A DNA stretch of 25,029 nt, taken from a virus. Taxonomy: Duplodnaviria; Heunggongvirae; Uroviricota; Caudoviricetes. The DNA lies in IMG/VR virus record IMGVR_UViG_2671180435_000002, one strand, 5' to 3'. Positions 1 through 3,000 of this stretch are shown one piece after another (the stretch's first letter is position 1; every line of letters begins with the position of its first letter). The position numbers were made by a program.

Positions 1-3000
1 TACACTAAATCAGTAAGTTGGCAGCATCACCAGCCTTCTTGAGGCTACCACCTGTTTTCAGGTGTCATTCAGACGTGATTTGCCCCAACAAGTTGCATGC
101 GTGACTATATTAAGACGACTTATAACCACCAAAACATTTGCTTTGCAAGCAAAAACAGTGACCATTGACTCTAAGAAAATTCCGATCTATTGTTAGGGTC
201 ATCAAAGTTACTTAACAGTATTCCGAAATGAAAATACAAAGCAAGCTAATTGTCTTATTAAACATTATTATTGCATTTATATTATTTGAGCTTTTAGCTC
301 AAAAATTTGGTTTGAGTACATTATTTTAAAGCAAGATAAACAATATCGGGNNNNNNNNNNNNNNGGCACTCTAGTTTTTATAATTAACAATTAAACGTCC
401 ATAAAATGTTATTTACTTTTCTTCGCTATTGTCATATCTTAATATAGTGGCTTACGCCACTCTACTTTCATCACATTTTGTACGTTTATGTACTCGCCAT
501 GAAGCTCTTTCATGGCGATTTTTTATTCTTAATCCAAGAACATACTCCCTACCTATAGCAAAATCACTTTTTTAACAAAAGAATAACGTATTTAGGTAAT
601 CATTACGAATTTACCCTATAGGTGCTACTGGCCATTCAATATCCGGTGCAGTTGATGTATCAACACGGTTCAGCAACACCCGATACTTTTTCCAAGCTTC
701 CAGCAACAAGGTTTCTTTCTCCGTTGCGATCTCCAGATCCACAGCATCCTGAAGCGGCGCTATATGCTCACTGGCTACCTGCATCAGGCTGTTTTTTGTT
801 TCTTCCGCCTCCCGGATCCGGAACAGTTTTTCTGCTTCCGTATCCTTCACCCAGGCTGTGCCGTTCCACTTCTGAAACTCCCCTTCCGGGGATAACCAGG
901 TGACATTTTCCGGTAATGAGCCGAGTTCAGAAATAAATAACGCGTCGCCGGAAGCCACGTCATAAACCGTTTTACCCCGATGATCTTCAACGAGATGCCA
1001 CGATGACTCATCACTGTTGAAAACAGCCACGAAACCAGCCGGAATATCTGGCGGTGCAATATCGGTACTGTTTGCAGGCAGACCTGTATGAGGCGGAATA
1101 TATGCGTCACCTTCACCAATAAATTCATTAGTTCCGGCCAGCAGGTTATAAATTTTTATGGTCCGTGCTTGTTCACTCATTCTGAATGCCATTATGCGAG
1201 CCTCACAATATAGTTAAATGCGATGTTTTTGACGGTGTTTTCCGCGTTACCAGCAGCGTTAACGGTGATGGTGTGTCCATGTGAACCAATCGCAACAGAG
1301 TGCGTATGAGCACCAATACCGACAGTATGCGCGTGTGCACCCGCAGATGCTGCTGTGCCGGACAGTGAGTGTGTATGGTTTCCTTCTGAAGATGATTTAC
1401 CTACCCATTGGGAGGTGCCACTGGTTAATGAGCCACTGATACCAACCTGATTAGTCCCGCTAACTTGAGTACTCCCTGCCGGAAACATTCCAGTAGGTTG
1501 ACTCCCGCTATTCGTTCTGGGCCCAGTCTGACTATGTTGGTGGGCCCCAGCTGAACTTGTAGAGCCGCTCAGACTGTGCGTATGCGCCCCGGTGTTATTC
1601 GTGGATTTAGTGCCGTAATCAAACGACGATGTGGTTTTCGTCCCCAAATCCGTACTGGATGCGCTGGCGCTGTGGGTGTGCGATTTAATGCCATCCTGTT
1701 CCTGAGACAATACGGCACGACCACTGGCGGGCTTGCCCTTAATCGTCCAGCCACGCATATCAGGGATCACGCCTGACGGATAAGCGGCTGCAAGTTTCGG
1801 GTAAGCAGATTTGTCAAAAGTCTGCCCCTGCATCAGGGCATAACCAGACGGAACGGTATCTGATGGCCACGGGATTGGTGCACCGACTGGATAAAACTCT
1901 GCAGGAGGATGAGCCGAGGTGTAAAGCTGCGCCCACGGCGACCAGTTTGCGTCGGTCGTATCCCGTCGTGAACGAATAAATGCCGGAGCATGAGCACCGC
2001 TTGTACCACTCCAGCCGATGAGTAACTCACCTTCGCCAACGGCTGTCATCCCTTTCAGGTGAATGATATTTCCATACGCTGTTGGATATCCGTTGTTATA
2101 CACCTCGTATAACTCAAGACCTGCTGCCCCCTGCGTATTGTCTGTCAGCGCGGCTACCCGACCTTTTGAAGCCAGATTAACTGATGATACTGCTGTTCCA
2201 CCTGACGGTAGCGCCCCGATCTCTGATGCCGTTGGCTTATTTCTGGAGTTATAGTCCCTTCGCCAGCCAGGTGAATAATCTGTTCCGTGATTAATATAGG
2301 TAAACTGGGCGTTGGTTGTTCCGCCACCGCTGGATGTGGTCGGAGTGGTAATGCGGATCGTCATCGCTGACTTTATCCCCATTACTTCAATGACAGCTCC
2401 GGCGAGATGAATATTACCGCAGCCAGTATCAGTAATGATTTTATTATTGCCATAAGACCAGGAACCCTTGCACATCCAGTATGGATGGTTAAATGCTCCC
2501 TGAGAATCCAGCCACTCGATAAACTGTGCAGTCGTCCAGTTTCCTGTTGTTGTGCTTACTGACCCACCGAAGGCACGGCAGGCACCAATATTTTTCGTAA
2601 AGGTGTCTTTGCCAGGGATATCCGCACCGTTCTGATCTTTCTGCAGACGTTTCTCAGCATTGTCATTGGCTGCTTTTACTGCCTTTGGCGTTGCCGCCAG
2701 CGTTTCAGACGTGCTGTTGGTCGCGCTGCTTAGCTGGATTATCCCTTTCTGTGCTGTCGTTGCATCCTGTGCGGTGTATTTCCCGTTAGCCAGGTCATAC
2801 GCGGCCTTAACGGCTTTTGGTGTTGCCGCCAGTGACTCGGAAGTGCTGTTAGTCGCACTACTGAGCTGTACTATCCCCTTTTTCGTCGTGCTCGCATCCT
2901 CAAGCGCCACGGCGGATGCAATATCCTCTGCCCGTTTTGCCGCTGTCTCAGCGCGCGTTGCTGCAGATTCCGCCGTACTTTTGCTCTGAGCTGCTGCCGT

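What the first reader, a model, noticed from the sequence alone, without database searches (positions are those of the whole stretch)
32..610. AT-rich non-coding stretch after tfa with a 33-codon hydrophobic ORF, hairpins and a promoter-like element
No ORF of 60 aa or more exists here, but a small ORF at 228-329 (+) encodes MKIQSKLIVLLNIIIAFILFELLAQKFGLSTLF, a single predicted transmembrane helix of the size seen in type I toxins or small membrane regulators. A TTGACT-17 bp-TATTGT promoter-like pair lies at 165-193 and a strong plus-strand terminator hairpin at 495-524. The ORF lacks a convincing Shine-Dalgarno, so it may instead be part of a small RNA or just AT-rich spacer.
Basis: inference. 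Interest (0 to 1): 0.4.

Follow-up and report, generated by a model that had tools for sequence, protein, structure and literature searches.

The report
Unannotated YncL-like small membrane-protein gene
The AT-rich stretch after the tail-fibre assembly gene is not empty spacer: it is a small self-contained prophage cargo gene for a 33-residue membrane peptide related to the E. coli stress protein YncL, present in about 15% of complete E. coli genomes and not annotated in any E. coli record examined here.

Summary
The region has 25-31% GC and no ORF of 60 aa or more.

The ORF is very probably a real gene:
- It is intact in every copy seen, as 8 DNA haplotypes encoding 4 peptides.
- dN/dS is 0.11 and 0.04 against the two divergent clades (permutation p = 0.0004 and 0.018).
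- It matches NCBIfam YncL (E = 1.3e-5). Ten shuffled controls gave no hit.
- It scores 25 bits, below NCBI's 35-bit naming cut-off. That probably explains why annotation pipelines skip it.

Window 87-610 holds most of a roughly 580-nt module. The module lies directly downstream of tfa in lambdoid prophages at four or more integration sites. About 830 of 5,426 complete E. coli genomes carry it, but only 4 of 55 phage records with this tfa do. Promoter, ORF and terminator all persist in the most divergent clade, which is the anatomy of a "moron".

No conserved antisense promoter or known toxin family supports a type I toxin-antitoxin reading. The last ~85 nt of the transcript are 93% conserved between clades and could be a 3'-UTR sRNA; this is unproven.

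Verdict: new member of a known kind, moderate interest.

The parts
1..31 (.). Terminal 31 nt of an IS1 copy. This is the boundary of the finding, not part of the module.
   Evidence: The window is identical to L001 over its first 86 nt. In L001, a 768-bp gap in homology to phage ev099 (3264-4031) contains the annotated IS1A transposase. That the sequence is the IS1 inverted repeat is from memory.
32..86 (.). Remnant of variable prophage DNA between the old attachment site and the module. It ends at a 186-nt deletion junction (86/87) specific to this window.
   Evidence: Alignment A1. BLAST against ev099 places 32-87 at intergenic positions 757-812 and 87-610 at 998-1505.
87..127 (.). Conserved non-coding island upstream of the promoter, function unknown. 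In relatives it extends about 70 nt further left.
   Evidence: 90% identical between clade A and the GF47 clade, while the adjacent 128-160 is 54% identical. It forms a 25-nt, 76% inverted repeat with 437-461 (I2).
165..170 (+). -35 hexamer TTGACT of the predicted sigma-70 promoter.
   Evidence: Invariant in all six aligned sequences, which span the three clades. It belongs to the only promoter-like site found in the GF47-type module.
188..193 (+). -10 hexamer TATTGT (TATCGT in the GF47 clade). The inferred transcription start is near 200.
   Evidence: The start position is an inference from spacing only.
228..329 (+). 33-codon gene for a YncL-like single-span membrane peptide (stop codon included).
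   Evidence: Intact in all copies seen. dN/dS 0.11 and 0.04. NCBIfam YncL E = 1.3e-5. BLASTP to K-12 YncL 11/28 identical, E = 2e-7. Shuffle controls negative. Hydrophobic span at residues 7-25.
330..440 (+). Poorly conserved 3' UTR spacer. It contains the N-run 351-364, which has no counterpart in relatives.
   Evidence: 365-440 is 62% identical between clades, with indels. The N-run appears as an insertion in alignments A1 and A2.
441..493 (+). Conserved 3' element: hairpin AGUGGC-UUAC-GCCACU (446-461) followed by a linker that is unpaired apart from a predicted 4-bp stem.
   Evidence: 441-526 is 93% identical between clades whose flanks are 62-68% identical. Fold z = -6.9. Changes within the hairpin are wobble-compatible or fall in the loop.
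494..524 (+). Intrinsic terminator: 10-11-bp stem plus T-run. It ends the plus-strand transcript, which converges on tfa.
   Evidence: retained in the GF47 clade. On the minus strand no T-run follows the stem (sequence).

Best explanation
Window 87-610 holds most of a compact, horizontally mobile prophage cargo unit (a 'moron'). It lies just downstream of the tail-fibre assembly gene and is transcribed towards it.

Proposed anatomy and mechanism:
1. A sigma-70-type promoter (165-193) drives an mRNA of roughly 320 nt.
2. The 33-codon ORF (228-329) is translated without a Shine-Dalgarno sequence, from an unstructured AU-rich leader.
3. The product is a single-span inner-membrane peptide that is a divergent paralogue of the E. 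coli stress-response small membrane protein YncL.
4. Transcription ends at the intrinsic terminator (494-524), which also keeps it from running antisense into tfa.

By analogy with YncL, the peptide probably inserts in the inner membrane of the lysogen and modulates membrane potential or envelope stress. For a phage, that could serve stress tolerance or exclusion of other phages.

Shown: the sequence features, the conservation, the coding constraint and the homology.
Inferred: transcription, translation, membrane insertion and physiological role.
For: 1. Coding constraint.
- Across the E. coli genome, phage, IMG/VR and metagenome loci examined, the ORF occurs as 8 DNA haplotypes giving 4 peptides. 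All are 33 codons with no frameshift or stop.
- The one 43-aa frameshift variant was found only in the protein collection.
- Window versus the GF47 clade: 17 nt differences but only 5 amino-acid changes. Nine differences fall at codon position 3 and one at position 2. dN/dS = 0.11, permutation p = 0.0004.
- Window versus the MP1 clade: dN/dS = 0.04, p = 0.018.

2. Homology to YncL.
- NCBIfam NF000537 E = 1.3e-5 for the window peptide and 3.7e-5 for the divergent variant.
- BLASTP is ungapped over 28 residues, E = 2e-7.
- 0 of 10 shuffled or reversed peptides hit anything in NCBIfam.
- The Smith-Waterman score is 60 against 20 +/- 4 for shuffles. None of 20,000 shuffles reached it, including shuffles that preserve the tail/span/tail layout.
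- Both proteins have the hydrophobic span at residues 7-25. M1, S5, L10, N12, A16, L19, F20, L22, F27 and G28 are shared.

3. Module behaviour.
- The same roughly 580-nt unit follows tfa at the lambda att/bio site, at the serU/zinT site, at the Qin/ydfJ site and next to sitABCD. It is also in phages ev099, mEp332 and PhiR70_1.
- About 830 of 5,426 complete E. coli genomes carry it, always on the chromosome.
- Only 4 of 55 phage records with a matching tfa carry it. Phage lambda does not.
- GC is 25-31%, against about 50% in the neighbouring genes.

4. Conserved architecture.
- TTGACT-17-TAT(T/C)GT is the only promoter-like site in the 78%-identical GF47-type module, and it is at the homologous position. 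The terminator is retained there too.

5. Known biology of YncL.
- It is a detected 31-aa membrane protein. Its production causes sublethal membrane depolarisation and nucleoid condensation (PMC12542507).
- Its Salmonella orthologue was first catalogued as an sRNA (STnc1110) before being recognised as coding (PMC5437024).
Against: - There is no Shine-Dalgarno sequence in any clade, so translation efficiency is uncertain.
- The promoter match (9 of 12) is no better than chance expectation for this AT-rich DNA.
- No expression data of any kind are available.
- The peptide scores below NCBI's curated YncL cut-off (25 against 35 bits), so it is not an orthologue. Its function may differ from YncL's.
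- Sequence diversity is shallow: three clades, and nothing outside E. coli-type sequences. The selection test therefore rests on few independent substitutions.
- The 195-nt 3' UTR with a very conserved end is not explained by a simple protein-only moron.
Confidence: 0.65

Rival explanations
1. Dual-function locus. The mRNA encodes the YncL-like peptide, and its conserved last ~85-125 nt (about 400/441-524) are released by processing, or made from an internal promoter, as a trans-acting Hfq-type small RNA. This adds to the main explanation rather than replacing it.
For: - 441-526 is 93% identical between clades whose flanking DNA is 62-68% identical and whose synonymous sites have dS of about 0.85. 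The largely unpaired linker is conserved as well.
- The shape is sRNA-like: a 5' hairpin, an AU-rich largely single-stranded stretch, then a strong terminator with a U-tail. Fold z = -6.9.
- A possible internal promoter, TTTACT-17-TATCTT (412-440), can be read from the sequence.
Against: - No Rfam family matches. The best hits are MicC at 22.8 bits (gathering score 90) and Esr41 at 15.6 bits (gathering score 102).
- Predicted pairing with the ompC leader is no better than for shuffled sequence, whereas real MicC is far better.
- The candidate internal promoter is weak and loses its last T in the GF47 clade.
- The element never occurs without the ORF: 829 genomes against 827.
- A short gene-conversion tract could mimic selection.
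Confidence: 0.25
2. Type I toxin-antitoxin system. The peptide is a membrane-depolarising toxin whose translation is held off by mRNA folding and by an antisense or trans-pairing small RNA.
For: - The peptide has the size and hydrophobicity of type I toxins.
- Its homologue YncL depolarises the membrane when produced (PMC12542507).
- RNAalifold predicts a 15-bp long-range helix pairing the start-codon region with 411-432, with one compensatory change.
- A minus-strand promoter-like site lies at 435-406.
Against: - There was no hit to Hok, Ldr, TisB, Ibs, Fst or any other toxin family in Pfam, NCBIfam or PADLOC.
- The antisense promoter-like site is not retained in the GF47-type module.
- No direct repeat was found that would give a divergent sRNA 15 nt or more of complementarity to the leader.
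- The long-range helix is inconclusive: 3 of the 6 pairs that changed in GF47 are broken, and 92 of 500 shuffles score as well.
- YncL itself is not classed as a toxin-antitoxin toxin.
Confidence: 0.1
3. Non-coding element only. The ORF is incidental, and the region serves as a terminator or insulator and a recombination linker between tail genes and variable cargo, or as an H-NS-bound AT-rich spacer.
For: - There is no Shine-Dalgarno sequence.
- The promoter match is at chance level.
- PGAP annotates nothing there in any E. coli record examined here.
- The module sits at a mosaic junction where cargo differs (sitABCD, an AraC-type regulator, or the att site).
Against: - The codon-position pattern and low dN/dS, the intact frame in all haplotypes and the specific similarity to YncL are not expected of non-coding DNA.
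- PGAP's silence is explained by the 35-bit equivalog cut-off.
Confidence: 0.07

Closest known systems
YncL (b4598), the 31-aa stress-response small membrane protein of E. coli K-12 (NCBIfam NF000537)
   Same: - Nearly the same length: 33 against 31 aa.
- The same layout: a short, positively charged N-terminus, a hydrophobic span at residues 7-25, then a K/R-F-G motif.
- 11 of 28 residues identical and 18 of 28 similar, with no gaps.
- A free-standing small gene ended by a stem-loop.
   Different: - It scores below the family's curated cut-off (25 against 35 bits).
- It sits in prophages downstream of tfa, not between patD and ortT.
- It has no Shine-Dalgarno sequence, whereas yncL has AAGGTGG.
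- It is much more AT-rich.
- It has a long 3' UTR with a conserved end.
- Its regulation and function are untested.
STnc1110 / yncL of Salmonella, a locus first listed as a small RNA and later shown to be coding and sigma-S dependent (PMC5437024)
   Different: It is a chromosomal orthologue of yncL, not a prophage paralogue. No DNA-level similarity was seen here.
Phage morons such as HK97 gene 15 and lambda bor and lom (PMC3594210)
   Same: - An independent promoter-gene-terminator unit.
- Base composition unlike its neighbours.
- Present in some phages but not in close relatives.
- HK97 gp15 is also a small inner-membrane protein made from the prophage.
   Different: There is no sequence similarity to gp15, Bor or Lom. 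At 33 aa it is far smaller. Expression from the repressed prophage and any exclusion phenotype are untested.
Type I toxins (TisB, Ldr, Hok, Ibs, ZorO, ShoB)
   Same: They are small hydrophobic single-helix peptides that can depolarise the inner membrane.
   Different: No family match, no conserved antisense or trans-pairing RNA, and no demonstrated toxicity.
YohP, a 27-aa small membrane protein of E. coli
   Same: It belongs to the same functional class as YncL: production causes depolarisation and nucleoid condensation (PMC12542507).
   Different: No sequence match to the peptide was found.

Membership tests
YncL family (NCBIfam NF000537, equivalog) | Whole-protein HMM score at or above the curated cut-off of 35 bits | tested here: not met
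   25.0 bits (window peptide) and 23.5 bits (GF47 variant). It is therefore not an equivalog or orthologue.
YncL family (NCBIfam NF000537, equivalog) | Statistically significant, non-compositional sequence similarity to YncL | tested here: met
   HMM E = 1.3e-5. BLASTP E = 2e-7. 0 of 10 shuffles hit NCBIfam. 0 of 20,000 shuffles reach the alignment score, including layout-preserving shuffles.
YncL family (NCBIfam NF000537, equivalog) | Peptide of about 31 aa with one transmembrane span | tested here: met
   33 aa. The best 19-residue hydropathy window scores 2.54 at residues 7-25, the same position as in YncL.
YncL family (NCBIfam NF000537, equivalog) | Chromosomal context between patD and ortT | tested here: not met
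   K-12 yncL lies between patD and ortT. This gene is always next to a prophage tfa.
YncL family (NCBIfam NF000537, equivalog) | Protein detected; induced by heat shock, minimal medium or stationary phase; depolarises the membrane when produced | not testable with these tools
   Known for YncL only (PMC12542507, PMC5437024).
Phage moron | Extra DNA that closely related phages lack | tested here: met
   Of 55 phage records that match this tfa (38 over at least 80% of its length), lambda included, only 4 carry the module.
Phage moron | Base composition different from the surrounding genes | tested here: met
   GC 0.25-0.31 against 0.47-0.56.
Phage moron | Own promoter and terminator | tested here: met
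   Both are predicted at the sequence level and retained in the 78%-identical clade. Their activity was not tested.
Phage moron | Expressed from the repressed prophage | not testable with these tools
   No transcriptome data are available here.
Type I toxin-antitoxin | Cis-antisense or trans-pairing small RNA antitoxin | tested here: not met
   The only antisense promoter-like site (435-406) is not retained in the GF47-type module. No suitable direct repeat exists for a divergent sRNA.
Type I toxin-antitoxin | Toxin belongs to a described toxin family | tested here: not met
   No Pfam or PADLOC hit; the only NCBIfam hit is YncL.
Type I toxin-antitoxin | Translation-blocking long-range mRNA fold supported by covariation | tested here: inconclusive
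   A 15-bp helix is predicted, with 1 compensatory pair and 3 broken pairs in GF47. 92 of 500 shuffles score as well.
Hfq-type / 3'-UTR-derived small RNA | Rho-independent terminator with U-tail, preceded by a conserved single-stranded region | tested here: met
Hfq-type / 3'-UTR-derived small RNA | Match to a described RNA family | tested here: not met
   Rfam: nothing at E <= 1 within 32-610. The best weak hits are MicC (E = 0.57, 22.8 of 90 bits) and Esr41 (E = 2.9).
Hfq-type / 3'-UTR-derived small RNA | Stable short transcript, chaperone binding, defined targets | not testable with these tools
   Needs northern blotting or RIL-seq.

The most novel reading that the evidence does not exclude
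The module may be a two-in-one prophage device. In this reading a depolarising YncL-like peptide has its translation gated by a 5'-3' mRNA fold, and the invariant 3' end of the same transcript acts as a trans-acting small RNA on host or competing-phage targets. Sitting next to the receptor-binding tail-fibre genes, it would give lysogens phage exclusion, abortive infection or stress dormancy.
Probability: 0.1. Interest if true: 0.6.

Novelty: new member of a known kind. Interest (0 to 1): 0.35.

Why it matters
- Small membrane proteins are systematically missed by annotation. Here a conserved, selected 33-codon gene sits in about 15% of complete E. coli genomes and in cultured temperate phages, with no annotation. 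The likely reason is that it falls 10 bits below a curated family cut-off.
- It would be the first prophage-borne relative of YncL. YncL was recently shown to cause sublethal membrane depolarisation, so the finding links a host stress-peptide family to phage cargo.
- It offers a tractable system for asking what such peptides do for a phage or its lysogen. mEp332 and PhiR70_1 were deposited with E. coli K-12 MG1655 and E. coli C as hosts.
- It is an incremental finding, not a new principle.

Tried and rejected
- **MicC-like porin-regulating sRNA next to the tail-fibre genes.** A permissive Rfam scan gave a full-length but chance-level MicC hit (E = 0.57). Predicted pairing with the ompC leader was no better than for shuffles (0.59 of shuffles as good), while real MicC beat all 300 shuffles. 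Rejected.
- **Antisense RNA.** The minus-strand ATGACA-18-TAACAT site exists in clade A but does not pass the scan in the GF47 clade. A possible minus-strand terminator at 155-131 is also not conserved (alignment).
- **Hairpin inside the ORF (285-303), flagged as terminator-like.** Substitutions in both divergent clades break its pairs, so it is incidental.
- **Other ORFs.** The 37/44-aa ORF overlapping the promoter loses its start and gains a stop in the GF47 and Qin-type sequences. The 24-aa minus-strand ORF inside the terminator accumulates mostly non-synonymous changes, by my reading of the alignment. The 48-aa TTG ORF spans the terminator.
- **Cross-species search.** Neither a 27-nt probe from the invariant 3' element nor a fully degenerate 14-codon probe found anything in one genome per species (185,579 species).
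- **Protein-level searches.** A search of 1.8 billion representatives returned only the peptide itself and a frameshift variant. The search for homologous proteins refuses queries under 40 aa. The 71-aa 'YncL cluster' members proved to be an overlapping upstream ORF and were unusable.
- **PHROGs.** No meaningful hit.
- **Literature.** A search for the peptide sequence found nothing.
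Full report
**1. What is in the window**

Positions 611-1192 (-) encode a 193-aa tail-fibre assembly protein, and 1192-4281 (-) encode a 1029-aa side tail fibre. RefSeq relatives annotate them the same way. The tfa gene is 94-95% identical to lambda orf-194. The stretch 32-610 is therefore the DNA just downstream of tfa in a lambdoid prophage.

Its GC content is 0.25-0.31, against 0.47-0.56 in the tail genes. The longest ORF in it is 48 aa.
- the ATG ORF at 228-329 (+), with the stated translation;
- TTGACT-17-TATTGT at 165-193 (+);
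- an 11-bp stem at 494-518 followed by six T;
- no Shine-Dalgarno pairing, about 0 kcal/mol against -7.2 for K-12 yncL.

By itself the promoter match is what chance gives in this DNA: 3 sites found, 3.0 +/- 1.6 in shuffles. The 3' hairpin region is far more stable than shuffles, with z = -6.9.

**2.

- Window 1-31 is the last 31 nt of an IS1 copy. In the near-identical locus L001, a 768-bp block holding an annotated IS1A transposase interrupts homology to phage ev099 exactly there.
- The window lacks 186 nt after position 86 that all close relatives have.
- The run of N at 351-364 has no counterpart in any relative. They read ATATCG|GGCACT without a gap.
- None of these three features touches the promoter, the ORF or the terminator.

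**3. The region is a conserved module**

BLAST against E. coli complete genomes finds window 87-350 in 813 of 5,426 genomes, 140-350 in 827, and 365-610 in 829. It is always chromosomal, with up to three copies per genome, and nothing is annotated under any listed match.

The shared unit is about 580 nt. The window retains positions 87-610 of it. It always lies directly downstream of a tfa gene, but in prophages at different integration sites:
- beside bioA-ybhB, the lambda site (L001);
- beside zinT/serU (L005);
- in ydfJ, the Qin site (L006);
- next to the cargo operon sitABCD (L007, L008, L091-L096).

It is also in the cultured phages ev099, mEp332 and PhiR70_1, in 48 IMG/VR contigs and in 24 metagenome contigs. 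In the serU prophage it is the only thing between tfa and the attachment-site remnant, since K-12 chromosomal homology runs up to the 3' 62 nt of serU.

Only 4 of the 55 phage records that match this tfa contain the module. Lambda itself does not. Two independent probes found no copy in one genome for each of 185,579 species.

**4. The ORF is under selection as a protein**

Across all loci fetched there are 8 DNA haplotypes of the ORF, encoding 4 peptides. Every one has 33 codons and an intact frame.

Against the most divergent clade (GF47 type, whole module about 78% identical):
- the ORF differs at 17 nt but only 5 residues;
- nine differences fall at codon position 3, seven at position 1 (mostly synonymous Leu changes) and one at position 2;
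- Nei-Gojobori dN/dS is 0.11;
- relocating the same substitutions at random gives 5 or fewer amino-acid changes in 0.04% of trials.

Against the MP1 clade, dN/dS is 0.04 with p = 0.018. The sample is shallow (three clades), but the pattern is that of a translated gene.

**5. The peptide is a YncL relative**

- Pfam, PHROGs and PADLOC give nothing.
- NCBIfam gives one hit, NF000537 'stress response membrane protein YncL'. E = 1.3e-5 for the window peptide and 3.7e-5 for the divergent variant, over residues 1-28 of both.
- BLASTP against K-12 YncL (L009:17100-17195) gives 11/28 identities and 18/28 positives with no gap, E = 2e-7.
- The match is not compositional. Ten shuffled or reversed peptides hit nothing in NCBIfam. 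None of 20,000 shuffles reaches the alignment score of 60 (shuffle mean 20, sd 4), even when the tail/span/tail layout is kept.
- Both proteins have their hydrophobic span at residues 7-25. They share N12 inside it and a K/R-F-G motif after it.

The score of 25 bits is below NCBI's curated 35-bit equivalog cut-off. The peptide is therefore a paralogue, not an orthologue. This is probably why PGAP leaves the ORF unannotated in the E. coli records examined. In a collection of about 15 billion proteins, the exact peptide occurs only as two unnamed metagenome predictions plus one frameshift variant. The peptide sequence appears in no paper in the library searched.

**6. Architecture and likely mechanism**

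In the GF47-type module, TTGACT-17-TATCGT at the homologous position is the only promoter-like site on either strand. The terminator is retained there as well. The -35 block is invariant in all six aligned sequences.

So promoter, ORF and terminator travel together, are AT-rich relative to their neighbours, and are absent from close relatives. These are the defining features of a phage moron (PMC3594210). The unit is transcribed towards tfa, occupying the position where lambda has the convergent b-region genes (from my knowledge of the lambda map).

I infer a transcript of roughly 320 nt (about 200-524). Its AU-rich, almost unstructured leader (-1.7 to -4.2 kcal/mol) would allow SD-independent translation.

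What the peptide does can only be argued by analogy:
- YncL is a detected inner-membrane protein whose levels rise in minimal medium and on heat shock.
- Its production causes sublethal depolarisation and nucleoid condensation (PMC12542507).
- It is cleaved by RseP in vivo (PMC10470546).
- Its Salmonella orthologue is sigma-S dependent and was first catalogued as an sRNA (PMC5437024).

A prophage copy could tune the lysogen's membrane energetics or stress state. Alternatively, like the small inner-membrane moron product HK97 gp15, it could interfere with incoming phages. Neither role has been tested.

**7. The rest of the module is not fully explained**

Identity between clade A and the GF47 clade varies sharply along the module:

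| Window positions | Identity |
|---|---|
| 87-127 | 90% |
| 128-160 | 54% |
| 161-227 | 78% |
| ORF (228-329) | 81% |
| 365-440 | 62% |
| 441-526 | 93% |
| 527-610 | 68% |

The 3' island comprises hairpin 446-461, a 32-nt linker that is unpaired apart from a predicted 4-bp stem, and the terminator. It is more conserved than the coding sequence, which suggests an RNA-level function such as a 3'-UTR-derived sRNA.

It matches no Rfam family. A weak MicC resemblance did not survive a pairing test against ompC. It never occurs apart from the ORF.

The upstream island (87-127) and the start of the 3' island form an imperfect 25-nt inverted repeat. Its meaning is unknown.

**8. Type I toxin-antitoxin reading**

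The peptide has the right size and hydrophobicity, and its homologue depolarises membranes. Against that:
- no toxin family matches;
- the single antisense promoter-like site is not conserved;
- no repeat would support a trans-pairing sRNA;
- the predicted start-codon-sequestering long-range helix has one compensatory pair and three broken pairs, and is matched by 92 of 500 shuffles.

I rate this reading at about 0.1.

**9. Verdict**

The finding is an unannotated, prophage-borne member of the YncL small-membrane-protein family, packaged as a moron. That makes it a new member of a known kind, of moderate interest. Two conserved non-coding islands remain open questions.

Noticed in passing
window 1-31 (and L001 3264-4031): The window starts inside an IS1 copy. 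In L001 the IS1 insertion is accompanied by loss of about 550 bp that intact phages (ev099, mEp332, PhiR70_1) carry between an AraC-family regulator gene and the module.
   Followed up: partly
window 86/87: A clean 186-nt deletion relative to all close relatives. None of the best-matching complete E. coli genomes listed shows it.
   Followed up: partly
window 351-364: A run of 14 N plus 2 extra bases sits where every relative has no sequence at all (ATATCG|GGCACT). The two 8-mers flanking this point (AATATCGG and GCACTCTA) also occur 19 nt apart inside the 186-nt segment the window has lost. This may be coincidence or a small rearrangement.
   Followed up: partly
window 651-849 (-), inside tfa: A strong match to Rfam RF02111 'IS009' (218 bits, gathering score 117, E = 7e-55). 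This catalogued candidate RNA lies entirely within the tfa coding sequence.
   Followed up: no
L003 4551-4890 (phage ev099); the homologous intergenic stretch is also in L002 and L004: These phage genomes carry about 340 nt of E. coli chromosome, ending in the 3' 62 nt of tRNA-Ser serU. It looks like a relic of a serU-integrated ancestor picked up by imprecise excision or recombination. Their own integrase lies elsewhere.
   Followed up: partly
window 87-127 and 437-461: The two best-conserved non-coding islands of the module form an imperfect inverted repeat: 25 nt, 76% complementary, with a 12-nt perfect core ACTATATTAAGA / TCTTAATATAGT. Together they flank the promoter and ORF. The repeat is weaker in the GF47 clade.
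   Followed up: partly
L008 2524-2623; L091-L094 2392-2491: In the GF47-type clade a frameshifted tfa fragment lies on the far side of the module, so the module is bracketed by tfa sequence. Beyond it are an MFS efflux transporter (absent in L093) and sitABCD as further prophage cargo.
   Followed up: no
L003 3501-4244 (-), L002 1017-1760 (-), L001 2314-3057 (-): An AraC-family transcriptional regulator gene lies on the far side of the roughly 1.5-kb non-coding stretch that contains the module. From memory, its placement after tfa resembles appY in the K-12 DLP12 prophage. I did not compare the two.
   Followed up: no
window 1192-4281 (-) and overlapping ORFs 2871-3647 (-), 2916-3683 (+), 3029-3778 (+): The side tail-fibre protein has a long Ala/Ser/Thr-rich repetitive N-terminal half. 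The 250-aa ORFs in other frames over the same DNA look like by-products of that repetitive composition.
   Followed up: no
protein P0002 (Logan assemblies): A 43-aa frameshift variant of the peptide (identical through residue 26, then a different tail) exists in two short public contigs. It is the only broken copy seen, and it could be a sequencing error.
   Followed up: no
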